Virus record (IMG/VR): IMGVR_UViG_2529292829_000010
Span: 1 to 33,790 of that record
Reading direction: 5' to 3' (one strand)
Length of the DNA: 33,790 bases
Origin: a virus
Taxonomy: Duplodnaviria > Heunggongvirae > Uroviricota > Caudoviricetes
The position numbers and the translations under genes are program-made. A model generated the notes under the pieces. It saw nothing but the letters and a program-made list of their open reading frames with translations. It searched no databases and had not been told where the DNA came from. Positions 4,425-20,937 of the stretch are shown here, one piece after another; within the stretch, counting starts at the first letter, position 1; each line of letters begins with the position of its first letter.

Positions 4425-4482
4425 AAAAAGGGCGGCAGAGCAGTCACGGAGTAAAACTGATACCGCCAAACGTCACCAGAAA
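4425..4482 (-). ncRNA. dicF: DicF-like small regulatory RNA (ftsZ translation inhibitor)
   Basis: Minus-strand transcript 5'-UUUCUGGUGACGUUUGGCGGUAUCAGUUUUACUCCGUGACUGCUCUGCCGCCCUUUUU-3' matches my recollection of DicF, with a GC-rich 3' stem and U-run. Sits directly upstream of dicB, as in the Qin dicB operon. Confidence 0.75.
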
Positions 4483-11273: not shown

Positions 11274-11399
11274 TTTTATGGATCACCTTTCTGATTGATT
11301 TCATATTGGCGAGGTAGCAGGAGTTAAGTAGAATTGCTGCGGGTGCTTGAGGCTATCTGTCTCAGGCATGAACACCAAAAGGCAGATAGAGAAAAGCCC

Positions 11400-11462
11400 C
11401 AGTTAACATTACGCGTCCTGCAAGACGCTTAACATTAATCTGAGGCCATATCTATGCGACAC
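11400..11462 (-). ncRNA. Putative Sok-like antisense RNA
   Basis: Minus-strand promoter-like TTGACC (plus 11491-11496) with a weak -10 near 11466-11471. Antisense to the mok-like start at 11454. Hairpin GCGUCUUGCAGGACGC (plus 11412-11427) near the predicted 3' end. Boundaries inferred. Confidence 0.35.
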
Positions 11463-11513
11463 ATAGAGATTAGCCTCTTACGGACCGAAAGGTCAAGGAG
11501 AAGCAGGCTATGA
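11454..11513 (+). CDS. mok-like leader ORF, 19 codons, translationally coupled to hok
   Basis: ATG at 11454; its TGA stop (11511-11513) overlaps the hok ATG (11510-11512). Confidence 0.35.
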   Translation: MRHIEISLLRTERSRRSRL

Positions 11514-13168: not shown

Positions 13169-13540
13169 ATGCGTATAGAGTTTGTTTTGCCTTACCCGCC
13201 AACGGTGAACACCTACTGGCGACGTCGTGGCAGTACATATTTTGTATCAAAAGCCGGTGAGCGTTATCGCCGTGATGTGGCGCTCATTGTTCGCCAGCAG
13301 CGACTGAAATTAAATCTGTCCGGAAGGCTAGCGATCAGGATTATTGTGGAGCCACCGGATAAGCGCCGTCGTGACCTGGACAATATCCTGAAAGCGCCAC
13401 TGGATGCACTGACACATGCGGGACTGCTTATCGACGACGAGCAGTTTGATGAAATTAATATTGTGCGCAGTCAGCTTGTACCTGGTGGTCGGCTGGGCGT
13501 GAAGATTTACGAAATTACAGGTGGTAACGATGGCACGTGA
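13169..13540 (+). CDS. rusA: Holliday junction resolvase RusA, 123 aa
   Basis: [31 protein letters not shown] closely parallels E. coli RusA [31 protein letters not shown]. AGAGG RBS. Confidence 0.9.
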
Positions 13541-13895
13541 TATTCAGATGGTTCTTGAGCGTTGGGGAGCGTGGGTGGCAAATAATCATGAGGATGTCAC
13601 ATGGCCATCGATTGCTGCTGGCTTTAAAGGATTAATACCGTCGAAAGTTAAATCGCGTCCGCAATGTTCCGACGATGACGCAATGATCATTTGTGGCTGT
13701 ATGGCCCGGTTGAATAAGAACAACAAAGAATTACACGATTTGCTGGTAGATTATTACGTGGCGGGCATGACGTTTATGGCGCTAGCACGAAAGCATGGTC
13801 GTTCGGATTGCTGGGTTGGCCGTTTGTTGCAAAAGGCTGAAGGGATAGTTGACGGCATGTTGATGATGCTTGATATCAAGCTGGACATGGACTGA
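13530..13895 (+). CDS. Late-gene antiterminator Q (short QuuD-type), 121 aa
   Basis: ATG at 13530 six nt after AGGTGG; overlaps the rusA stop. Cys cluster [16 protein letters not shown]. Canonical Q position between rusA and the late region. Confidence 0.75.
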
Positions 13896-13939: not shown

Positions 13940-14419
13940 TTAAATGTTTTTATAATAACTCGCTTTTTCGTTAAAATTATTTTTGTTTTCTCTGGATGGA
14001 GAACTTACGTAGTTTTCCCATGCGCTATACGTTTTGATTAATGCTTCTCGCTCTGTAGGTGATTTTGTGTTTGCCTTGAGTTTTTCAAATGGTTCTTTTG
14101 CTGCATTTAAAACGATCATCATTTGCTCGATGTCGCAGTCAGCGATTGCTTTTGATATATCGGGATCCCAGCCAACTCTCACTAACATATCTTGCTTGCT
14201 GGAAGTAATAAATTGTGTAGTGTTGATTATCATTTCTCCCTTATATAGAAGCTTTAAAAAATTATTTTTGTTAACTTGCTGGGGCGTGTTGTCCAAGGTG
14301 ATATTTTCGCATTTCTTTAAATACGCATAATGATCACTATTTCTGTTTTCTGCGGAAGATTGAGCCGTACACCCTGTAATGATCAATGTACTTAATAATG
14401 TCAATGCTATTTTTTTCAT
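13940..14419 (-). CDS. Lipoprotein of unknown function, 159 aa (moron)
   Basis: Signal peptide MKKIALTLLSTLIITGC with lipobox ITGC. Gene is visibly AT-rich relative to its flanks and oriented against the surrounding operons. Confidence 0.75.
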   Translation of the reverse strand: MKKIALTLLSTLIITGCTAQSSAENRNSDHYAYLKKCENITLDNTPQQVNKNNFLKLLYKGEMIINTTQFITSSKQDMLVRVGWDPDISKAIADCDIEQMMIVLNAAKEPFEKLKANTKSPTEREALIKTYSAWENYVSSPSRENKNNFNEKASYYKNI

Positions 14420-16098: not shown

Positions 16099-16148
16099 AA
16101 CGGATGAGATTGCAGAATTAATTACGCACCATTATTATTCTGCTCCCG

Positions 16149-16224
16149 GCCCTTTAGCTCAGTGGTGAGAGCGAGCGACTCATAATCGCCAGGTCGCTGG
16201 TTCAAATCCAGCAAGGGCCACCAT
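16149..16224 (+). tRNA. tRNA-Ile2 (anticodon CAU, lysidine type; ileZ/ileX-like)
   Basis: Cloverleaf: acceptor GGCCCTT/AAGGGCC, D-arm GCTC-AGTGGTGA-GAGC, anticodon loop CUCAUAA (CAT at 16182-16184), T-loop TTCAAAT, encoded CCA. Close to E. coli ileX as I recall it. Confidence 0.85.
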
Positions 16225-16397: not shown

Positions 16398-16411
16398 CGC
16401 TTATTTTTCCA

Positions 16412-16435
16412 GGCTCGCTTCGGCGGGCCTTTTTC
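16412..16435 (+). terminator. Intrinsic terminator after the tRNA array
   Basis: GGCTCGC-TTCG-GCGGGCC (one G-U pair) followed by TTTTTC. Confidence 0.65.
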
Positions 16436-16572
16436 ATATCCGCGCCACGCCCGGCGAATATCAAAAAACCACAGAGCCTTTCAGGGGTGAGCTTACGGGA
16501 TGGTCAGTGTGACTTTCTCTGTGGGCTGGTCACCACCGGGCGCAGGCTCACCCACTAAAAGGAAAAGTCACG

Positions 16573-16998
16573 ATGTTTGGTATTTTCAAAAAGAAAACCC
16601 GCAAGGCCATTACCGAAGTGAAGAAGATGGAGAACCGCGACGCAGTGGAGGCGACCGTCTGGGGCGCGTATTCCATTGCATACGCTGACGGCACCTGTGA
16701 TGCGAAAGAAATCGCAGTACTGGAGAAAACCATTGCAGCACTTCCTGCCTTTGCGCCGTTCTCCGGTGAGATTGCCCAGATGAGCGCCAATATCCGCGCC
16801 CGTTATGAAGCATCCCCGCGTTCAGCCAATGCCGAAGCCCTTCGTCAGCTGGCTGATGTCGCCGGTACTGATGATGCAGTTAATGTGCTGTGCCTGTGTC
16901 TGGATATCGCTGACCAGGATGGCATTGGTCCGGATGAAGAAGCACAGCTCAAGAAAATTGCGCAGGCGCTTCAGCTACCGCTGGAGCAGTACCTGTGA
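16573..16998 (+). CDS. TerB-like domain protein, 141 aa
   Basis: Helical pattern of acidic and hydrophobic residues (AYADGTCDAKEIAVLEKTIAAL ... LDIADQDGIGPDEEAQLKKIAQAL) typical of TerB/DjlA-N-type domains. AAGGA 10 nt upstream. Confidence 0.6.
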   Translation: MFGIFKKKTRKAITEVKKMENRDAVEATVWGAYSIAYADGTCDAKEIAVLEKTIAALPAFAPFSGEIAQMSANIRARYEASPRSANAEALRQLADVAGTDDAVNVLCLCLDIADQDGIGPDEEAQLKKIAQALQLPLEQYL

Positions 16999-17147
16999 AA
17001 AGTGCGCGCCTTGTGCTGGCTGCCATCCTGCTGTTTCTGGTAGTGGCAGTGGATTTCACCGGACGGCTGATGTCGGTGCTGGCAGATGGTGTGCTGGTGG
17101 TGATGGCGCTGGTCGTGCTCCGGCCTTTACTGCGTAAATCTGAATAA
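16995..17147 (+). CDS. Putative 50-aa membrane microprotein (GTG start)
   Basis: GTG at 16995 overlaps the TerB TGA (GTGA). VKSARLVLAAILLFLVVAVDFTGRLMSVLADGVLVVMALVVLRPLLRKSE has two hydrophobic segments. Not in the ORF track. Confidence 0.4.
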   Translation: MKSARLVLAAILLFLVVAVDFTGRLMSVLADGVLVVMALVVLRPLLRKSE

Positions 17148-17198
17148 CACCACACAAAAGGCATCTGCGGGTGCCTTTGACGGGGTATTGTTTTTTAC

Positions 17199-17222
17199 GG
17201 GCCGCTGGTGGCCCTTTTTTAT
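17199..17222 (+). terminator. Intrinsic terminator before the lysis cassette
   Basis: GGGCC-GCTGGT-GGCCC followed by TTTTTTATTT. A weaker hairpin AAAGGCA...TGCCTTT lies at 17157-17178. Confidence 0.7.
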
Positions 17223-17239
17223 TTACAGGAGAAAAAAGT

Positions 17240-17632
17240 ATGTCTGAACCCTTATCCGGTTCCGGTACGGCTGCGGCGCTCGGTGGAGCGACGGTATTCG
17301 GGCTGTTTACCGGAACGGATTTCGGGATTGTGTTTGGTGCGTTCGCCGGGGCGTTATTTGTGGCAACAATTCCGCAGGCGCTTTCAGCCTGGCGTGTGGC
17401 GGCGCATTTTCTGGTGTCGTTCATTATCGGCGTGCTGGGGGCAGGGGTTCTGGCATCCTGGCTGGTAAAGCACACAGGGTTTGACGGAGCGCCTGTCGAC
17501 GCACTGTGTGCAGTACTGGTGTCAGTGGTGTCGGTGAAGATTCTCTCGTTCATCCACCAACAGGATATCGCATCACTGGTGTCCGGCCTGTTATCTCGCC
17601 TGCGTGGCGGAGGAGGCGGCAATGTTAAGTAA
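17240..17632 (+). CDS. Holin-like membrane protein, 130 aa, three predicted TM segments
   Basis: ATG at 17240 with AGGAGAAAAAAG upstream. Three hydrophobic segments. Immediately upstream of a second membrane protein and the endolysin. Confidence 0.55.
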   Translation: MSEPLSGSGTAAALGGATVFGLFTGTDFGIVFGAFAGALFVATIPQALSAWRVAAHFLVSFIIGVLGAGVLASWLVKHTGFDGAPVDALCAVLVSVVSVKILSFIHQQDIASLVSGLLSRLRGGGGGNVK

Positions 17633-17900
17633 CCTTCCCGGATTACTGAATGTGGCGTTATGCACGGTTATCGTGCTGACGCTCTTTTTTTATCGTCGCC
17701 GTGATTCCAGACATAAACCGCTGATGTCATGGCTGGCCTGGCTGCTGATGCTGCTGTATGCCTTTGTGCCCCTCAGCTATCTGTGTGGTCGCCCGTTAGC
17801 GGTGAACTGGCTGGCGGTGGGGCTTAATCTGCTGTTCTGCGTGCTGGTGATTCGCGCACGCGGGAACGTTTCAAAAATCTTTGTATTACGAAGGCGCTGA
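17622..17900 (+). CDS. Second holin/antiholin-like membrane protein, 92 aa
   Basis: ATG at 17622 overlaps the end of the previous ORF. Three hydrophobic segments and a basic C-terminus RARGNVSKIFVLRRR. Confidence 0.55.
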   Translation: MLSNLPGLLNVALCTVIVLTLFFYRRRDSRHKPLMSWLAWLLMLLYAFVPLSYLCGRPLAVNWLAVGLNLLFCVLVIRARGNVSKIFVLRRR

Positions 17901-17901
17901 T

Positions 17902-18447
17902 ATGAAGTCGAAAGATGAAATTTTTGACGAAGTTCTGGGAAAAGAGGGCGGTTACGTCAATCACCCGGATGATAAAGGCGGACCGACAAAATGGGGTATT
18001 ACAGAAAAAGTCGCCCGCGCTCACGGATATCGCGGCGATATGCGTGACCTGACGCGCGGGCAGGCGCTGGAAATACTCGAGGCGGATTACTGGTTCGGAC
18101 CACGTTTTGACCAGGTCGCCGCATTATCCCCTGATATTGCTGCAGAGTTGTGTGATACCGGTGTGAATATGGGGCCGTCCGTAGCATCGAAAATGCTCCA
18201 GCGCTGGCTGAACGTTTTCAACCTGCAAGGCAAATTGTTCCCGGATATGGACGCAGACGGGCGTATCGGCCCCCGCACGATTAATGCACTACGGGCTTAT
18301 CTGCAAAAACGCGGCAAAGACGGCGAACTGGTAATGCTGACTGCGCTGAACTGTACGCAGGGTGACCGCTATCTGGAGCTGGCAGAGAAACGGGAGGCTA
18401 ACGAGTCATTTGTCTACGGCTGGATGAAAGAGCGCGTAGCAGTTTAA
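17902..18447 (+). CDS. Endolysin: GH108-family muramidase with C-terminal peptidoglycan-binding domain, 181 aa
   Basis: N-terminal FDEVLGKEGGYVNHPDDKGGPTKWGIT is the GH108 signature. C-terminal region resembles PG_binding_3. Follows the holin-like genes. Confidence 0.8.
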   Translation: MKSKDEIFDEVLGKEGGYVNHPDDKGGPTKWGITEKVARAHGYRGDMRDLTRGQALEILEADYWFGPRFDQVAALSPDIAAELCDTGVNMGPSVASKMLQRWLNVFNLQGKLFPDMDADGRIGPRTINALRAYLQKRGKDGELVMLTALNCTQGDRYLELAEKREANESFVYGWMKERVAV

Positions 18448-18545
18448 AAACTGACGCTGAAGTGCTGAACACCCTCAACTCATGCAGGCTCTTTTCTGGG
18501 GTTACGATGAGCGAAAGCAAGGGGTACCGCATCAGATAGCAAAAA

Positions 18546-18580
18546 CCCCGGCTGCTGGAACAGTCCGGGGTTTTCTGTTT
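18546..18580 (+). terminator. Intrinsic terminator after the endolysin
   Basis: CCCCGG ... CCGGGG stem followed by TTTTCTGTTT. Confidence 0.65.
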
Positions 18581-18607
18581 CTGGCCTTGGGTAAGGCAAA
18601 GGAGAAC

Positions 18608-18790
18608 ATGAGGAAGTATAAACTAATTCTGTTGAGGTTGACTATGAAAAACGGCCTTGAATTGAAAGCGCCTGTAACTGATGACATCAGCAGAGCGGTG
18701 GCTTTTGCCATTAAGTGGGTGGCGGTTGGTATCGCCGTGTCTCCGATGCTGTATGGGCTGGCAAAACTGGTCATTGCGGTGAAATCGTAA
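18608..18790 (+). CDS. Small membrane protein, 60 aa
   Basis: ATG at 18608 with AAGGAGAAC upstream. C-terminal TM segment VAFAIKWVAVGIAVSPMLYGLAKLVIAV. Confidence 0.45.
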   Translation: MRKYKLILLRLTMKNGLELKAPVTDDISRAVAFAIKWVAVGIAVSPMLYGLAKLVIAVKS

Positions 18791-18801
18791 GTGGGGCGGG
18801 G

Positions 18802-18942
18802 ATGAGTATGTCAGATAGCATCATAAAACTGGCGCGGATTCTTTGTGTGGTTGTTGGCCTTTCATTTTCAGCAATGTTGGTTGCTATTTTCATTTCCACT
18901 GCCTGGCGAGTATTGAGCCTATCCGGATTGATTGGTGGATAG
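18802..18942 (+). CDS. Small membrane protein, 46 aa
   Basis: ATG at 18802. Hydrophobic core ILCVVVGLSFSAMLVAIFISTAW. Weak RBS. Not in the ORF track as a separate gene. Confidence 0.35.
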   Translation: MSMSDSIIKLARILCVVVGLSFSAMLVAIFISTAWRVLSLSGLIGG

Positions 18943-18946
18943 CGAG

Positions 18947-19129
18947 ATGAAGCGAAAACACTGGATACACAGAATGCCGCGAACGGCGGCGAAATGGGTA
19001 CTGGTAGCGATACTTGTGCCTTTTTTATTGGTGGGATGCGTCAGCCTGGATAAGGCGCACCAGCTTTTCGATGCAGCTTCTCAGGTCTGTGAAATTGTCG
19101 ACGGTGTTCGGCAGTGTATGCAGAACTGA
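18947..19129 (+). CDS. Small lipoprotein, 60 aa
   Basis: Signal peptide with lipobox LLVGC. Mature part carries three Cys. Could be an o-spanin-like or exclusion lipoprotein. Confidence 0.5.
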   Translation: MKRKHWIHRMPRTAAKWVLVAILVPFLLVGCVSLDKAHQLFDAASQVCEIVDGVRQCMQN

Positions 19130-19302
19130 TCGCCTGTAATAGCAGAATATTTTGCTGAAAAATGAAGAGCGTGCCAGCGTCCGGAAAGCATGAAATTCTG
19201 CTGTGTGTGTCAATTTTTCTTATACATTCTGAATCTTGCCGAATCAGGATGAACTTTGAACAACAGTCCGGGCGGCAAGGGGTATTTTTATCCGGAGGGG
19301 AT

Positions 19303-19527
19303 ATGAAGAGATTACTGGTAACCGTAAAGCCCTTTAACGGAACGATTCCATTCAGGGTTTTGCAGCGTGGACGTGTTCTGGTTAAGGATATCTTCAGTGG
19401 TAAATGCACGGAGTGTTACTCCCAGACATATGAAGTGGGTGCCACGGACGAAGAAATTTCTGTTGAATGCGATCTGAAGGCAAATATGGCGGGGATTGTA
19501 ACAGCCACGTTGTTGCCTGTTTCATGA
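19303..19527 (+). CDS. Hypothetical protein, 74 aa
   Basis: ATG at 19303 with GGAGGGG upstream. Confidence 0.5.
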   Translation: MKRLLVTVKPFNGTIPFRVLQRGRVLVKDIFSGKCTECYSQTYEVGATDEEISVECDLKANMAGIVTATLLPVS

Positions 19528-19567
19528 ATGACATAGAATGTCTCTGGGTACCCAAAAGGAGAACACT

Positions 19568-19783
19568 ATGTTTGTAGAAAATAACCTGAAGGCTGATCCT
19601 GATAATCAGGGATGGGTTCTGGGTTGGGCTGTAGTACGTGACAAACCCTGGCATCTGGTCGGCATTTATGCAACGGAGGATGGCGCAAAGTCTAAACGCT
19701 CTGAATTGAATGGGGAGTATGAAGTTCGTTATGGTTCCCATCGTTTAGGTAGTGATGATTTTATGTCTGTCGGACTCAGCTAA
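19568..19783 (+). CDS. Hypothetical protein, 71 aa
   Basis: ATG at 19568 with AAAGGAGAAC upstream. Followed by a strong terminator. Confidence 0.55.
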   Translation: MFVENNLKADPDNQGWVLGWAVVRDKPWHLVGIYATEDGAKSKRSELNGEYEVRYGSHRLGSDDFMSVGLS

Positions 19784-19804
19784 CTGGCTGTGATGCCTGT
19801 TTGT

Positions 19805-19830
19805 AGCCCCGCAAATGCGGGGCTTTTTTA
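19805..19830 (+). terminator. Intrinsic terminator
   Basis: AGCCCCGC-AAAT-GCGGGGCT followed by TTTTTT. Confidence 0.85.
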
Positions 19831-19925
19831 TATCTGGAGATGATGATGGAAAAACAGAAAACAAACCGATTGTAATCGGCGTTGCTGCTGTTCCGTTTGA
19901 GTTTGAGTTGTGTCAACTGGTGGGG

Positions 19926-20141
19926 ATGCGCATCAGTGATGAATGGGGTGAGGTTAAAGCCAGCGCGCAGTATGCGGATGGCGAAAACCAGTACTTGATC
20001 CACTACAAAGCAGCTGATGGTCGCGCCACGACGGAGTGGTTTGGTGAGTCAATGTTGGAAGCAACAGAAGATGATCGTCATCCGGGTTGTCCGGTATTTG
20101 CCGGTATGGAATTACCGGAAGGTGCAGTCGTTACTGAGTAA
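19926..20141 (+). CDS. Hypothetical acidic protein, 71 aa
   Basis: ATG at 19926. The upstream part of the 108-aa ORF overlaps the terminator hairpin. Start uncertain (TTG/GTG alternatives at about 19908 and 19920). Confidence 0.4.
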   Translation: MRISDEWGEVKASAQYADGENQYLIHYKAADGRATTEWFGESMLEATEDDRHPGCPVFAGMELPEGAVVTE

Positions 20142-20228
20142 CAGGCATTACAGCAGCCCTTCACACAGCGAGGGGCTGCGATAATGCAGGTGTTGGAGTG
20201 TGTGTAAATGATGATCGCTCTCATTTTG

Positions 20229-20276
20229 CGGGTCCTCCCGGTGGGGTACCCTTGCCACGGGGCGGGAGCGGCGCGG
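20229..20276. other. Candidate cos (cosN-like GC-rich element) about 190 bp upstream of terS
   Basis: GC-rich segment ...CACGGGGCGGGAGCGGCGCGG... with partial twofold symmetry, followed by an AT-rich tract before terS. Spacing is comparable to lambda cosN-Nu1. Confidence 0.3.
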
Positions 20277-20445
20277 AAAAAGGCTAGTTTTTGCATTTTT
20301 ATCGGCCACCATCATCTTTGCATCTTATTGATTATTAATGGTTATTTGTTTTTTGTATGTCTAATTGAGCGGTTTTTGTTCGACATCGAACGCGTTTTCT
20401 TAAAGTTGTTCGCACGATGCATGTTTAAAGCTATCCGGAGGAAAT

Positions 20446-20937
20446 ATGGATCATGAGTTGAAAAAACTGGTGCTGAATATTAATCAACTGGCGGCTTTAT
20501 CTGGTCTGCACCGCCAGACTGTCGTGGCAAGACTGAAAAACATTCGTCCCGCTGGTGGACATGACAAACTCAAGCTATACCGGTTGACCGATATTCTGAC
20601 TGAATTTATGGGGTTACCACCGCCGGTTGCTGAGGGCGAAATGGATCCACATGAACGCAAAGCCTGGTATCAGTCTGAACGTGAGCGTCTTAAGTTCGAA
20701 CAGGAAACGGCACAACTCATTCCGGCCAGTGATGTCAGACGGGAGTTTGCCATCTGGGCAAAAGCGGTCGTGCAGGTGCTGGAGACATTACCGGATATTC
20801 TTGAACGTGACTGCGGTCTGCAGCCTGCCGCTGTGAGCCGTGTTCAGTCCATTATTGATGATCTGCGCGATCAGATAGCCCTGCGGGTGACTGAAACAGG
20901 TGCGGATGATGAGGAGGAATTACAGCAGGAGGAGTAA
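20446..20937 (+). CDS. Terminase small subunit (Nu1-like), 163 aa
   Basis: GGAGG RBS. N-terminal HTH LNINQLAALSGLHRQTVVARL. Acidic C-terminus. Directly upstream of and overlapping the large terminase subunit. Confidence 0.8.
   Translation: MDHELKKLVLNINQLAALSGLHRQTVVARLKNIRPAGGHDKLKLYRLTDILTEFMGLPPPVAEGEMDPHERKAWYQSERERLKFEQETAQLIPASDVRREFAIWAKAVVQVLETLPDILERDCGLQPAAVSRVQSIIDDLRDQIALRVTETGADDEEELQQEE

What the first reader, a model, noticed from the sequence alone, without database searches (positions are those of the whole stretch)
17240..19129. Lysis cassette lacks a canonical spanin pair; three small membrane/lipoprotein ORFs form a separate unit
Two three-TM holin-like proteins and a GH108 endolysin are clear, but no Rz/Rz1-type i-spanin/o-spanin pair follows. 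After a terminator comes a new unit with a 60-aa membrane protein, a 46-aa membrane protein and a 60-aa lipoprotein (lipobox LLVGC, three Cys in the mature part). These are too short for a normal i-spanin. They could be an unconventional spanin, or a superinfection-exclusion or membrane-effector set.
Basis: partly seen in the sequence, partly recalled or inferred. Interest (0 to 1): 0.45.

Follow-up and report, generated by a model that had tools for sequence, protein, structure and literature searches.

The report
Partner-less mini-lipoprotein in spanin slot
This E. coli prophage's cell-bursting gene set has no normal outer-membrane-breaking (spanin) pair; in that position it carries only a tiny conserved outer-membrane lipoprotein, and two small membrane-protein genes have been inserted in front of it as a separate mobile piece.

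Summary
The window is a phiP27-like lambdoid prophage. Its late operon carries two holins (17240-17632, 17622-17900), a GH108/PG_binding_3 endolysin (17902-18447), a conserved hairpin, and three small ORFs that are all under purifying selection. No Rz/Rz1-type, embedded or unimolecular spanin exists in the window.

The three ORFs are not one unit. ORF3 (18947-19129) is a lipoprotein with a 30-residue mature peptide. It is the constant fourth gene of this cassette: in 77 related loci it follows the endolysin, and in 33 of them it starts 14 nt after the stop or overlaps it (ATGA). This holds with different holins and endolysins in four genera. It never has an inner-membrane partner.

ORF1 and ORF2, with the hairpin, form a separate mobile module. 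In other E. coli prophages this module sits between the lysozyme gene and canonical Rz/Rz1. In Salmonella, ORF1 alone sits after tail-fibre genes.

Kongari et al. (2018) already called the phiP27 ORF3 homologue an o-spanin, but the i-spanin they paired with it looks spurious.

Best reading: ORF3 is a stand-alone outer-membrane lysis lipoprotein, mechanism unproven, and ORF1/ORF2 are accessory. Moderately interesting and directly testable.

The parts
17199..17214 (+). Terminator-like hairpin immediately upstream of the first holin gene
   Evidence: Consensus scan: 6-bp G+C-rich stem followed by TTTTTTATTT.
17240..17632 (+). Holin 1 (130 aa), Phage_holin_8 family
   Evidence: Pfam PF16931 E 1.3e-23; phrog_198 holin E 4e-42. 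Three hydrophobic segments. dN/dS 0.19.
17622..17900 (+). Holin 2 (92 aa), Phage_holin_3_7 family (3 TM); overlaps holin 1 by 11 nt
   Evidence: Pfam PF05449 E 2.7e-21; phrog_217 holin E 6e-38. Three hydrophobic segments.
17902..18447 (+). Endolysin (181 aa), GH108 catalytic domain plus PG_binding_3; no signal sequence or TM segment
   Evidence: Pfam PF05838 E 6e-26 and PF09374 E 2e-25. Matches PDB 6V3Z 'Sen1395' at E 8e-110 and 6V40 at E 1.5e-85. No hydrophobic segment.
18532..18584 (+). Conserved hairpin with an A-tract before and a T-tract after (intrinsic-terminator-like); it marks the left edge of the mobile ORF1 module
   Evidence: RNA fold -27.6 kcal/mol, z -3.9. Conserved in four other ORF1 contexts, with the inner stem changed on both sides (GGCTG..CAGTCC versus GTTTG..CAAAC). 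Homology with O157-type prophages begins here.
18608..18790 (+). ORF1, small membrane protein (60 aa as listed; probably 48 aa from Met13 at 18644); hydrophobic segment at the C-terminal end
   Evidence: phrog_1115 E 2e-41. The family core is the invariant C-terminal segment AFAIKWVAVGIAVSPMLYGLAKL.IA.KS, while the N-terminus varies. dN/dS 0.32. GAGG Shine-Dalgarno 6 nt before Met13, and GGAGG before the same Met in Salmonella.
18802..18942 (+). ORF2, small single-pass membrane protein (46 aa; the family norm is 44 aa from 18808)
   Evidence: phrog_4906 E 2e-19. 17 database clusters, mostly 44 aa, in Escherichia, Citrobacter, Cronobacter and Salmonella. dN/dS 0.15.
18947..19129 (+). ORF3, lipoprotein precursor (60 aa): long basic n-region, lipobox LLVG-C31, 30-residue amphipathic mature peptide with Cys48 and Cys57. 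It is the constant fourth gene of the lysis cassette, in the spanin slot
   Evidence: phrog_7528 E 4e-37. Lipobox, C48 and C57 invariant or nearly so. Residues after the lipid Cys are V/A/T-S/T/N, never Asp. dN/dS 0.24 overall and 0.12 for the mature part. Follows the endolysin in 77 loci.
19805..19824 (+). Strong terminator-like hairpin that closes the stretch downstream of the small ORFs
   Evidence: 8-bp stem with 7 G-C pairs, followed by TTTTTATATC.

Best explanation
The region contains two evolutionarily separable things.

(1) A four-gene lysis cassette: holin, holin, endolysin, ORF3.
- Shown: ORF3 is a 60-aa lipoprotein precursor. Its mature 30-residue peptide is amphipathic and predicted helical (low confidence), and carries a conserved Cys-x8/9-Cys pair.
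- Inferred: the absence of Asp after the lipid cysteine should send it to the inner leaflet of the outer membrane.
- Shown: it occupies the position that related cassettes give to Rz/Rz1-type spanins, and it is translationally abutted to the endolysin gene.
- Inferred: it performs the outer-membrane step of lysis without any phage-encoded inner-membrane partner.
- Mechanism, inferred and not tested: once the holins and endolysin have removed the wall, the lipid-anchored amphipathic peptide, possibly as disulfide-linked oligomers, destabilises the outer membrane. It could do this directly, or in the manner of small bacteriolytic lipoproteins such as colicin lysis proteins and entericidin B, for example through activation of outer-membrane phospholipase A.

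(2) A mobile accessory module: hairpin, ORF1, ORF2.
- Shown: this module has been inserted between the endolysin gene and ORF3.
- Shown: it is dispensable for ORF3 and co-exists with canonical spanins elsewhere.
- Inferred: it is read as part of the Q-antiterminated late transcript.
- Its function is open. It could modulate membranes or lysis timing, or exclude superinfecting phage.
For: Cassette identity.

No other spanin candidate:
- None in the window.
- None among the annotated genes of the complete phiP27 genome.

ORF3 is linked to the cassette:
- All 80 IMG/VR loci that encode ORF3 carry holin8 + holin3_7 + an M15 or GH108 endolysin wherever the flank is present. None carries Rz/Rz1.
- In 32 loci ORF3 starts 14 nt after the M15 stop, and in one locus it overlaps the GH108 stop as ATGA.
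- Distant family members, 35-55% identical, again sit directly after the endolysin. They do so next to a different holin family (Phage_holin_3_1) in two metagenome/genome loci and in Lelliottia, and next to M15 in Citrobacter.

The position is the spanin slot:
- Related two-holin cassettes in HK639 and mEp390 carry a small two-component spanin there.
- Salmonella phage F1055 carries a classical embedded Rz/Rz1 there.
- The same ORF1-ORF2 module is followed by Rz/Rz1 in O157-type prophages and by ORF3 here.

Selection on ORF3:
- dN/dS is 0.12 in loci that lack ORF1/2.
- The mature peptide is essentially identical across the three locus classes.

The family is small and uniform:
- An exhaustive profile search of 1.84 billion representatives found 21 proteins. 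Nineteen are 44-84 aa. The 111-aa and 220-aa hits match the profile over only part of their length, at the C-terminal and N-terminal end respectively. None was identified as a two-anchor or longer-domain relative; not all hits were inspected for a C-terminal membrane segment.

ORF1/2 are separable:
- Contexts.
- Alternative inserts at the same junction: a KilA-N gene, a 93-aa gene, a reverse-strand gene and an ORF1b variant.

Late-operon context: a Q-like antiterminator gene lies upstream, and no promoter was found for the small ORFs.

Prior annotation: Kongari et al. 2018 (PMC6139136) list the phiP27 homologue as an o-spanin.
Against: - There is no experimental evidence for any lysis role of this family.
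- LT-II toxin phages Rac-SA53 and SerU-LTIIb carry the same holins and GH108 endolysin but have toxin genes in place of ORF3.
- In complete E. coli genomes the holin pair occurs at 647 places and ORF3 at 409. ORF3 is therefore not obligatory for the cassette, and the site is also a moron hot spot.
- The mature peptide has about zero net charge, unlike the cationic disruptin, and is too short to bridge the periplasm.
- The AlphaFold model is low confidence, pLDDT 67.
- About half of the ORF3 loci do carry an ORF1-type membrane protein 1-4 nt upstream, so a facultative partnership is not excluded.
Confidence: 0.5

Rival explanations
1. ORF3 is a moron lipoprotein unrelated to lysis, for example a Cor/Llp-like receptor mask or a Bor-like surface factor. 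It happens to sit in the insertion hot spot after the endolysin gene. On this reading these phages are truly spanin-less and rely on shear or envelope fragility to break the outer membrane.
For: - The same junction hosts unrelated cargo: LT-II toxin genes, a KilA-N gene, a 93-aa gene and ORF1/2.
- About a third of the holin-pair cassettes in E. coli genomes lack ORF3.
- From general knowledge: lambda carries the lipoprotein gene bor just after Rz, and small outer-membrane lipoproteins are a classic exclusion device.
Against: - ORF3 is abutted to, or overlaps, the endolysin stop codon (14 nt, 0 nt, or ATGA). This leaves no room for its own promoter or terminator.
- It stays in that position across different holin and endolysin families and four genera.
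- In the 84 ORF3-bearing loci examined it was never away from a lysis cassette.
- From general knowledge: exclusion lipoproteins are usually encoded next to tail-fibre or receptor-binding genes and have mature domains about twice as long.
Confidence: 0.25
2. ORF1 (perhaps with ORF2) and ORF3 form a minimal two-component spanin. ORF1, started at Met13, would have N-out/C-in topology and present about 15-18 residues to the periplasm. That tail would pair with the 29-residue ORF3 peptide once wall degradation lets the inner membrane press against the outer membrane.
For: - Gene order and spacing resemble a 'separated' spanin. ORF2 stops 4 nt before ORF3, and the ORF1b variant stops 1 nt before ORF3.
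- About half of the ORF3 loci have an ORF1-type protein directly upstream.
- For the 48-aa form the flank charges favour N-out: -1 on the N side and +2 on the C side.
- Kongari et al. raise the idea of type I i-spanins.
Against: - 33 of 77 loci have ORF3 with no ORF1/2, under equally strong selection and with the same mature sequence.
- ORF1/2 sit in front of a complete Rz/Rz1 in 4 of 4 sampled non-P27 prophages, and their DNA is present in 1791 of 5426 E. coli genomes against 281 for ORF3.
- An ORF1 homologue stands alone after tail-fibre genes in Salmonella.
- The combined periplasmic length, under 50 residues, is below every spanin catalogued; the shortest listed is 62, and that value rests on a doubtful ORF.
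Confidence: 0.12
3. ORF3 is a normal o-spanin, and its i-spanin is encoded elsewhere in the prophage (as in T4) or is supplied by a host inner-membrane protein.
For: - The window does not cover the whole prophage.
- Kongari et al. note 31 genomes with a lipoprotein gene but no linked i-spanin, and allow for distant partners.
Against: - In the complete phiP27 genome the only annotated N-terminally anchored single-pass protein other than secreted toxins and lipoproteins is a 409-aa GIY-YIG nuclease-family protein. It is absent from this window.
- The published phiP27 'i-spanin' (20348-20542) starts with TTG and matches no PHROG. It lies antisense to a 90-aa gene that does match one (phrog_36812, E 5e-20), and its region is present in only 1 of the loci examined.
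- A 29-residue peptide would need an unusually long partner.
Confidence: 0.08
4. The small ORFs are not expressed or are decaying remnants.
For: NCBI's pipeline often leaves ORF3 unannotated, and all three ORFs are 'hypothetical' wherever they are annotated.
Against: - dN/dS is 0.15-0.32, in the same range as the holins.
- ORF3 has an intact reading frame in all 84 loci.
- The lipobox and both cysteines are invariant down to 35% identity.
- Shine-Dalgarno motifs precede the starts, and the junctions suggest translational coupling.
Confidence: 0.03

Closest known systems
o-spanin subunit of two-component spanins (lambda Rz1 type)
   Same: - Outer-membrane lipoprotein signal and small size (Rz1 is also a 60-aa precursor).
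- Periplasmic cysteines.
- Located at the 3' end of the lysis cassette.
- The phiP27 homologue is already listed as an o-spanin, a singleton family, by Kongari et al. 2018.
   Different: - No cognate i-spanin in the window, in phiP27, or in any of about 90 related loci.
- The mature part is predicted helical and amphipathic, not proline-rich or unstructured.
- 30 residues cannot reach an inner-membrane partner across an intact periplasm.
- Different PHROG family: phrog_7528, of unknown function, against the 'Rz-like spanin' families.
Unimolecular spanin (T1 gp11 type)
   Same: A single gene with an N-terminal lipoprotein signal, in a lysis cassette.
   Different: - ORF3 has no C-terminal transmembrane domain, so it cannot connect the two membranes.
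- The exhaustive search turned up no identified two-anchor relative, though not every hit was inspected for a C-terminal membrane segment.
Disruptin (phiKT gp28), the cationic peptide that replaces spanins
   Same: A short, single-component amphipathic peptide encoded in a lysis cassette of a phage without a spanin (abstract of bioRxiv 10.1101/515445). ORF3's 18-residue hydrophobic moment is about 0.57.
   Different: - gp28 is described as a cationic antimicrobial-peptide-like protein. It has no lipobox (from memory).
- ORF3 is lipid-anchored and has about zero net charge in its mature part.
- No sequence relationship was found.
Small bacteriolytic lipoproteins: colicin lysis proteins (bacteriocin release proteins) and entericidin B
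   Same: From general knowledge: precursors of about 45-52 aa give lipopeptides of about 25-33 residues, which on their own permeabilise or lyse the envelope. Colicin lysis proteins do so through outer-membrane phospholipase A. ColE1 lysis protein even shares the lipobox LLVGC. ORF3 has the same size and design.
   Different: - No sequence similarity, and ORF3 lacks the CQANYIRDVQGGTV motif.
- Those proteins are plasmid or chromosomal genes, not parts of a holin-endolysin cassette.
- The resemblance is a recalled analogy, not a tested relationship.
Small accessory membrane proteins of lysis or exclusion: LambdaSo Lcc6, HK97 gp15-type entry blockers (comparison for ORF1/ORF2)
   Same: - Lcc6 is a 65-aa single-pass phage protein needed at the holin step.
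- From general knowledge: exclusion morons are small membrane proteins flanked by terminators, often placed after tail-fibre genes. The Salmonella ORF1 homologue has exactly that setting.
   Different: - No sequence similarity to either.
- ORF1/2 occur next to unrelated holin families (class II/pinholin-type and holin8/holin3_7), which argues against a holin-specific partner.
- No functional data exist.

Membership tests
Two-component spanin (i-spanin + o-spanin) | An outer-membrane lipoprotein subunit with a lipobox and an outer-membrane sorting signal | tested here: met
   ORF3 has LLVG-C31, invariant across the family. The residue after the Cys is V, A or T, never Asp.
Two-component spanin (i-spanin + o-spanin) | A cognate type II inner-membrane protein (N-terminal TMD, periplasmic coiled-coil domain) encoded embedded in, overlapping or adjacent to the lipoprotein gene | tested here: not met
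   - No such ORF in the window or among phiP27's annotated genes.
- 33 loci have ORF3 directly after the endolysin, with unrelated genes downstream.
- The published phiP27 i-spanin ORF is antisense to a PHROG-supported gene and is not conserved.
Two-component spanin (i-spanin + o-spanin) | Combined periplasmic length sufficient to span the periplasm (62-300 residues in the catalogue) | tested here: not met
   - ORF3's mature part is 29 residues beyond the lipid Cys.
- ORF2's C-terminal tail is about 11-14 residues, and ORF1's N-tail is about 14-18 residues if it faces out.
Two-component spanin (i-spanin + o-spanin) | Periplasmic cysteine(s) able to form intermolecular disulfides | tested here: met
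   Cys48 and Cys57 are invariant or nearly so, including in members only 35% identical, where the spacing is 9 instead of 8. Whether disulfides actually form was not testable.
Two-component spanin (i-spanin + o-spanin) | Complements the Mg2+-stabilised spherical-cell lysis defect of a spanin mutant | not testable with these tools
   Requires induction of a lambda Rz-am Rz1-am lysogen carrying ORF3 on a plasmid.
Unimolecular spanin (T1 gp11 type) | N-terminal lipoprotein signal plus a C-terminal transmembrane domain in the same polypeptide | tested here: not met
   The lipobox is present, but the only hydrophobic segment is the signal peptide.
Disruptin (phiKT gp28 type) | Cationic amphipathic peptide without a membrane anchor | tested here: not met
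   - The mature peptide's net charge averages 0, range -4 to +2.
- It is amphipathic (muH about 0.57) but lipid-anchored.
Colicin lysis protein / bacteriocin release protein | Small lipoprotein with the conserved mature motif CQANYIRDVQGG and a colicin-operon context | tested here: not met
   - ORF3's mature sequence is CVSLDKA.QLFD.ASQVC.IVDGVRQC.
- Pfam and NCBIfam give no hit.
- The context is a prophage lysis cassette.
- Size and lipobox match only as an analogy.
Phage_holin_8 / Phage_holin_3_7 / GH108 + PG_binding_3 endolysin (the upstream cassette) | Score above Pfam's gathering threshold over the full model length | tested here: met
   Scores against cut-offs: 83.8 vs 26.4, 75.8 vs 25.4, 91.2 vs 21.2 and 89.2 vs 24.6 bits, all covering full or nearly full profiles.
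Anti-phage defence systems (PADLOC) | Match to any known defence-protein model | tested here: not met
   No hit for ORF1, ORF2, ORF3 or their neighbours at E <= 1.

The most novel reading that the evidence does not exclude
ORF3 defines a fourth kind of phage outer-membrane lysis protein, after two-component spanins, unimolecular spanins and disruptin. It would be a stand-alone, lipid-anchored amphipathic peptide of about 30 residues that ruptures the outer membrane from its inner leaflet, without any connection to the inner membrane. A bolder variant is a 'self-spanin'. In that version the unusually long, conserved, basic signal peptide keeps some precursor in the inner membrane, where it pairs through the Cys-x8-Cys region with mature copies in the outer membrane.
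Probability: 0.35. Interest if true: 0.7.

Novelty: new variant of a known kind. Interest (0 to 1): 0.52.

Why it matters
How tailed phages breach the outer membrane when they lack a spanin is an acknowledged open question. Kongari et al. list 13% of genomes as spanin-less, and 31 genomes with an orphan lipoprotein gene.

This family offers a clean and genetically tractable case for that question:
- The host is E. coli, the phage is lambdoid, and lambda Rz/Rz1 complementation assays already exist.
- A roughly 30-residue outer-membrane lipopeptide is the only conserved candidate.
- It is present in 281 of 5426 complete E. coli genomes and in the Shiga-toxin 2e phage P27.

The analysis also has practical consequences:
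- It corrects a published annotation. The phiP27 'two-component spanin', quoted as the shortest known, rests on an i-spanin ORF that is probably spurious.
- It identifies a widespread two-gene membrane module, with DNA matches in about a third of E. coli genomes, that sits inside lysis cassettes and has no known function.
- If ORF3 does lyse on its own, it would be a very small, lipid-anchored membrane-disrupting peptide, of interest for engineered lysis systems.

Tried and rejected
- Pfam, NCBIfam and PADLOC scans of the three small ORFs gave nothing above noise. PHROGs gave only families of unknown function.
- Profile searches of ORF3 and ORF1 against PDB sequences found no meaningful hit.
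- AlphaFold2 of ORF3 with a 25-sequence alignment returned one long helix at pLDDT 67. That is too weak for a fold search, so none was run.
- Rfam found no RNA family in the cassette.
- A genome-contig scan with the distant-subgroup alignment found nothing. An alignment that mixed both subgroups was too divergent to build patterns from.
- Literature searches for the RefSeq accessions of the O157 ORF1/ORF2 homologues returned no paper. No experimental paper on this lipoprotein family was found.
- I first assumed that Kongari's phiP27 i-spanin was the ORF1 homologue. Translating the coordinates showed it is a different, TTG-started antisense ORF.
- I considered an embedded Rz1 inside the endolysin or holin genes. 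Two lipobox scans rejected this.
- I considered a membrane-active C-terminal tail on the endolysin. The C-terminus is acidic/neutral and belongs to the PG_binding_3 domain.
- I considered a cationic disruptin-like action for ORF3. The charge analysis rejected it.


Full report
**What the window is.** Megablast of 17100-19300 against phage records hits phiP27 (a Stx2e phage), LT-II toxin phages and a few relatives in pieces. The wider window has a lambdoid layout:
- HNH endonuclease-family (phrog_96) gene, RusA gene, and a Q-like antiterminator gene at 13521-13895.
- A DNA methyltransferase gene and two tRNA genes.
- A TerB-like/DUF3927 gene pair, sitting where phiP27 carries stx2e.
- The lysis genes, followed by the small and large terminase genes.

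The finding therefore lies inside the operon downstream of the Q-like antiterminator gene.

**Checking the observation.** The lysis genes are as described:
- 17240-17632 is a Phage_holin_8 protein.
- 17622-17900 is a Phage_holin_3_7 ('3TM') protein.
- 17902-18447 is a GH108 + PG_binding_3 endolysin.

The endolysin has no hydrophobic segment. It matches the solved Salmonella muramidase Sen1395 (PDB 6V3Z) at E 8e-110.

A hairpin at about 18532-18584 folds at -27.6 kcal/mol, z -3.9. Three tightly packed small ORFs follow, at 18608-18790, 18802-18942 and 18947-19129. Each matches a PHROG family of unknown function. Across related loci their dN/dS values are 0.32, 0.15 and 0.24, in the range of the two holins (0.19 and 0.31), so they are real genes.

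No canonical spanin is hidden in the region:
- Two all-frame lipobox scans found only ORF3, plus an unrelated 159-aa lipoprotein gene on the minus strand at 13940-14419.
- A scan for N-terminally anchored single-pass proteins found only spurious overlapping frames.

No sigma-70-like promoter was found on the + strand anywhere in the scanned 16400-20500 stretch, and only about 20-30 nt separate the hairpin from the ORF1 reading frame. The 'new unit after a terminator' is therefore more likely read through by Q-modified polymerase than transcribed on its own. That last step is an inference from lambdoid biology.

**What is already in the literature.** Kongari et al. 2018 (PMC6139136) list phiP27 as having a 'separated' two-component spanin. 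It is the shortest in their catalogue, with 62 periplasmic residues. Their supplementary coordinates place the i-spanin at 20348-20542 (64 aa) and the o-spanin at 20706-20861 (51 aa).

Translating those coordinates gave two results:
- The o-spanin is the ORF3 homologue, started at its Met10.
- The 'i-spanin' is not an ORF1 homologue. It is a TTG-started ORF lying antisense to a 90-aa ORF.

The 90-aa ORF matches phrog_36812 at E 5e-20, whereas the 'i-spanin' matches no PHROG. That region occurs in only one of the loci I examined. The published i-spanin call is therefore probably spurious, and ORF3-type lipoproteins have no documented partner. I found no experimental work on this family.

Pinto et al. 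2021 (PMC8136144) report Rz in 277 of 279 Stx phages, and place the metallopeptidase (M15) canonical endolysin exclusively in their cluster C. I infer that the two Rz-less phages are the phiP27-type, cluster C ones; the paper does not state this.

**ORF3 belongs to the lysis cassette.** A scan of IMG/VR returned 80 loci that encode ORF3 homologues.
- Wherever the flank is present, these loci carry holin8 + holin3_7 + an M15 or GH108 endolysin. None carries Rz/Rz1.
- Among 77 loci with both an endolysin and ORF3, 33 are 'compact'. In 32 of them ORF3 starts 14 nt after the M15 stop, behind an AGGTG motif. In one it overlaps the GH108 stop as ATGA.

An exhaustive profile search of 1.84 billion representative proteins found only 21 family members. 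Nineteen are 44-84 aa; the 111-aa and 220-aa hits match the profile over only part of their length (C-terminal and N-terminal end respectively) and look like fusion or frame artefacts.

Members only 35-55% identical to ORF3 again sit directly after the endolysin:
- After an M15-like enzyme, beside a Phage_holin_3_1 holin, with a 0-nt gap.
- After a PG_binding_3 enzyme.
- Overlapping a GH108 gene in Lelliottia nimipressuralis.
- 14 nt after an M15 gene in Citrobacter braakii.

None of these loci has a type II membrane gene next to the lipoprotein gene. In the complete phiP27 genome the only annotated N-terminally anchored single-pass protein, apart from signal-peptide-bearing secreted or lipoprotein gene products, is a 409-aa GIY-YIG nuclease-family protein. 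It is absent from this window.

**The position is the spanin slot.** Related two-holin cassettes put spanins exactly there:
- HK639 and mEp390 carry a 91-aa i-spanin and a 49-50-aa o-spanin (phrog_1026 and phrog_1275, both 'Rz-like spanin').
- Salmonella phage F1055 carries a 179-aa Rz with an embedded 84-aa Rz1.

In addition, the same ORF1-ORF2 module is followed by Rz/Rz1 in O157:H7 and by ORF3 here, with junctions of 7 nt and 4 nt.

**Properties of ORF3.**
- Invariant or nearly invariant positions are the lipobox L-L-V-G-C31, Cys48 and Cys57. In the distant subgroup the Cys spacing is 9 rather than 8.
- The residue after the lipid Cys is V, A or T. By the Lol sorting rule (established knowledge) this predicts outer-membrane localisation.
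- The n-region is unusually long, basic (about +6) and conserved. dN/dS for residues 1-9 is 0.18, which supports Met1 as the start.
- The mature 30-mer is amphipathic (18-residue hydrophobic moment about 0.57) but has about zero net charge.
- AlphaFold gives one helix at low confidence.
- The mature part is the most constrained region, with dN/dS 0.12.

**ORF1 and ORF2 are a separate, mobile module.**
- DNA matching ORF1/ORF2 occurs in 1791 of 5426 complete E. coli genomes. ORF3 occurs in 281 and the holin pair in 362.
- In four of four sampled non-P27 prophages the pair sits between the lysozyme gene and the Rz 'lysis protein' gene.
- The hairpin travels with ORF1. Homology between contexts begins at the hairpin, and its inner stem differs by changes on both sides that preserve pairing.
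- In Salmonella, an ORF1 homologue stands alone after tail-fibre and tail-fibre-assembly genes, between terminators. It has GGAGG in front of the Met that corresponds to Met13 here. That is a classic moron arrangement, and it argues that the true product is 48 aa.
- The conserved core of ORF1 is its C-terminal hydrophobic segment, while the N-terminus varies. Some database proteins are fusions of an ORF2 N-terminus with an ORF1 C-terminus.
- At the endolysin-ORF3 junction other loci carry different cargo: a KilA-N gene, a 93-aa gene, a reverse-strand gene, or a shorter ORF1b variant that stops 1 nt before ORF3.
- ORF3's mature sequence and its selective constraint are the same in compact, ORF1b and ORF1+2 loci (dN/dS 0.12, 0.18 and 0.17). 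ORF3 therefore does not co-vary with these proteins.

**Interpretation.** Several things are shown:
- The cassette lacks any canonical or unimolecular spanin.
- ORF3 is a conserved, selected lipoprotein gene coupled to the endolysin gene in the spanin slot.
- ORF1/ORF2 are separable from ORF3.

The functional reading is inferred. ORF3 would carry out the outer-membrane step on its own. Its size and design recall small bacteriolytic lipoproteins (colicin lysis proteins, entericidin B; from general knowledge). They do not fit spanins, which must bridge the periplasm, or disruptin, which is cationic and unanchored.

The main counter-evidence is that the cassette exists without ORF3:
- LT-II phages carry toxin genes there instead.
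- About a third of the E. coli holin-pair copies lack ORF3.
- The junction is plainly a cargo hot spot.

A lysis-unrelated moron therefore remains a serious rival, at about 0.25. The mini-spanin idea (ORF1 N-out plus ORF3) is kept at about 0.12. About half of the ORF3 loci have an ORF1-type gene 1-4 nt upstream, and the charge distribution of the 48-aa form favours N-out. The distribution data speak against an obligatory partnership.

**Verdict.** The finding is a new variant of a known kind: an o-spanin-like lipoprotein without a partner. It has been noticed bioinformatically before but was mis-paired. It is moderately interesting because it makes the question of how spanin-less phages breach the outer membrane testable in E. 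coli with standard lambda tools.

Noticed in passing
L001 4323-4517 (+) = phiP27 record 20348-20542: The i-spanin that Kongari et al. 2018 assign to phiP27 is a TTG-started ORF with no PHROG match. It lies antisense to a 90-aa ORF (L001 4307-4579, minus strand) that matches phrog_36812 at E 5e-20. The 'shortest known two-component spanin' probably rests on a spurious ORF.
   Followed up: yes
window 16573-17147: A TerB-like gene (141 aa) and a DUF3927/'TciB-like' gene (50 aa) occupy the position where phiP27 carries stx2e. Terminator-like hairpins bracket them at 16411-16430 and 17199-17214. The pair recurs in many related loci.
   Followed up: partly
window 11341-11512 (+) and 4430-4481 (-): Rfam matches above the gathering score to the sok antitoxin RNA (106.7 bits), which implies a hok/sok-type locus, and to the DicF RNA (76.7 bits).
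   Followed up: no
window 13940-14419 (-): A 159-aa lipoprotein gene (lipobox IITGC, phrog_8179) lies on the opposite strand immediately after the Q-like antiterminator gene. It is the only other lipoprotein in the window and looks like a moron.
   Followed up: no
window 17902-18447: The endolysin matches PDB 6V3Z 'Sen1395' at E 8e-110 and 6V40 at E 1.5e-85. From memory, these are the Salmonella muramidases related to the typhoid-toxin secretion protein TtsA.
   Followed up: partly
L094 3501-3701 (Salmonella enterica contig) and L095: An ORF1 homologue stands alone after the GpJ-like, tail-fibre and DUF4376 tail-fibre-assembly genes, between two terminator hairpins. This is the position typical of exclusion morons.
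   Followed up: partly
P0208, P0213 (E. coli proteins); L088 2367-2617: Some prophages encode fusions of the ORF2 N-terminal half with the ORF1 C-terminal hydrophobic segment, or carry the two genes in reversed order before Rz. This hints that the two small proteins work together.
   Followed up: no
L037 3886-3999 and 12 similar loci: A shorter ORF1-like variant ('ORF1b', MKGIEVETPASLDLTRAAAFAIRLVAVAVLIWAVRWW) replaces ORF1+ORF2 and stops 1 nt before the ORF3 start codon.
   Followed up: partly
L090 3001-3258; hits H36, H49, H50, H56: RefSeq (PGAP) annotation frequently leaves the ORF3 lipoprotein gene uncalled ('none' under the match). GenBank records for phiP27 and pPE4 annotate wrong-frame or opposite-strand ORFs there instead.
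   Followed up: partly
L102 14266-15495 (phiP27 P27p22): A 409-aa protein annotated as a GIY-YIG nuclease has an N-terminal hydrophobic anchor followed by a charged, coiled-coil-looking stretch. It lies directly after Q and is absent from this window. It may be a membrane-anchored nuclease moron.
   Followed up: no
window 16148-16223: ARAGORN calls this tRNA tRNA-Met (anticodon CAT). The corresponding gene in phiP27 is annotated tRNA-Ile (ileZ), so it may be a lysidine-modified isoleucine tRNA.
   Followed up: no
L085, L086 (phages SerU-LTIIb, Rac-SA53): LT-II enterotoxin genes occupy exactly the slot after the same holin/holin/GH108 cassette, where ORF3 sits here. These phages have neither ORF3 nor Rz/Rz1.
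   Followed up: partly
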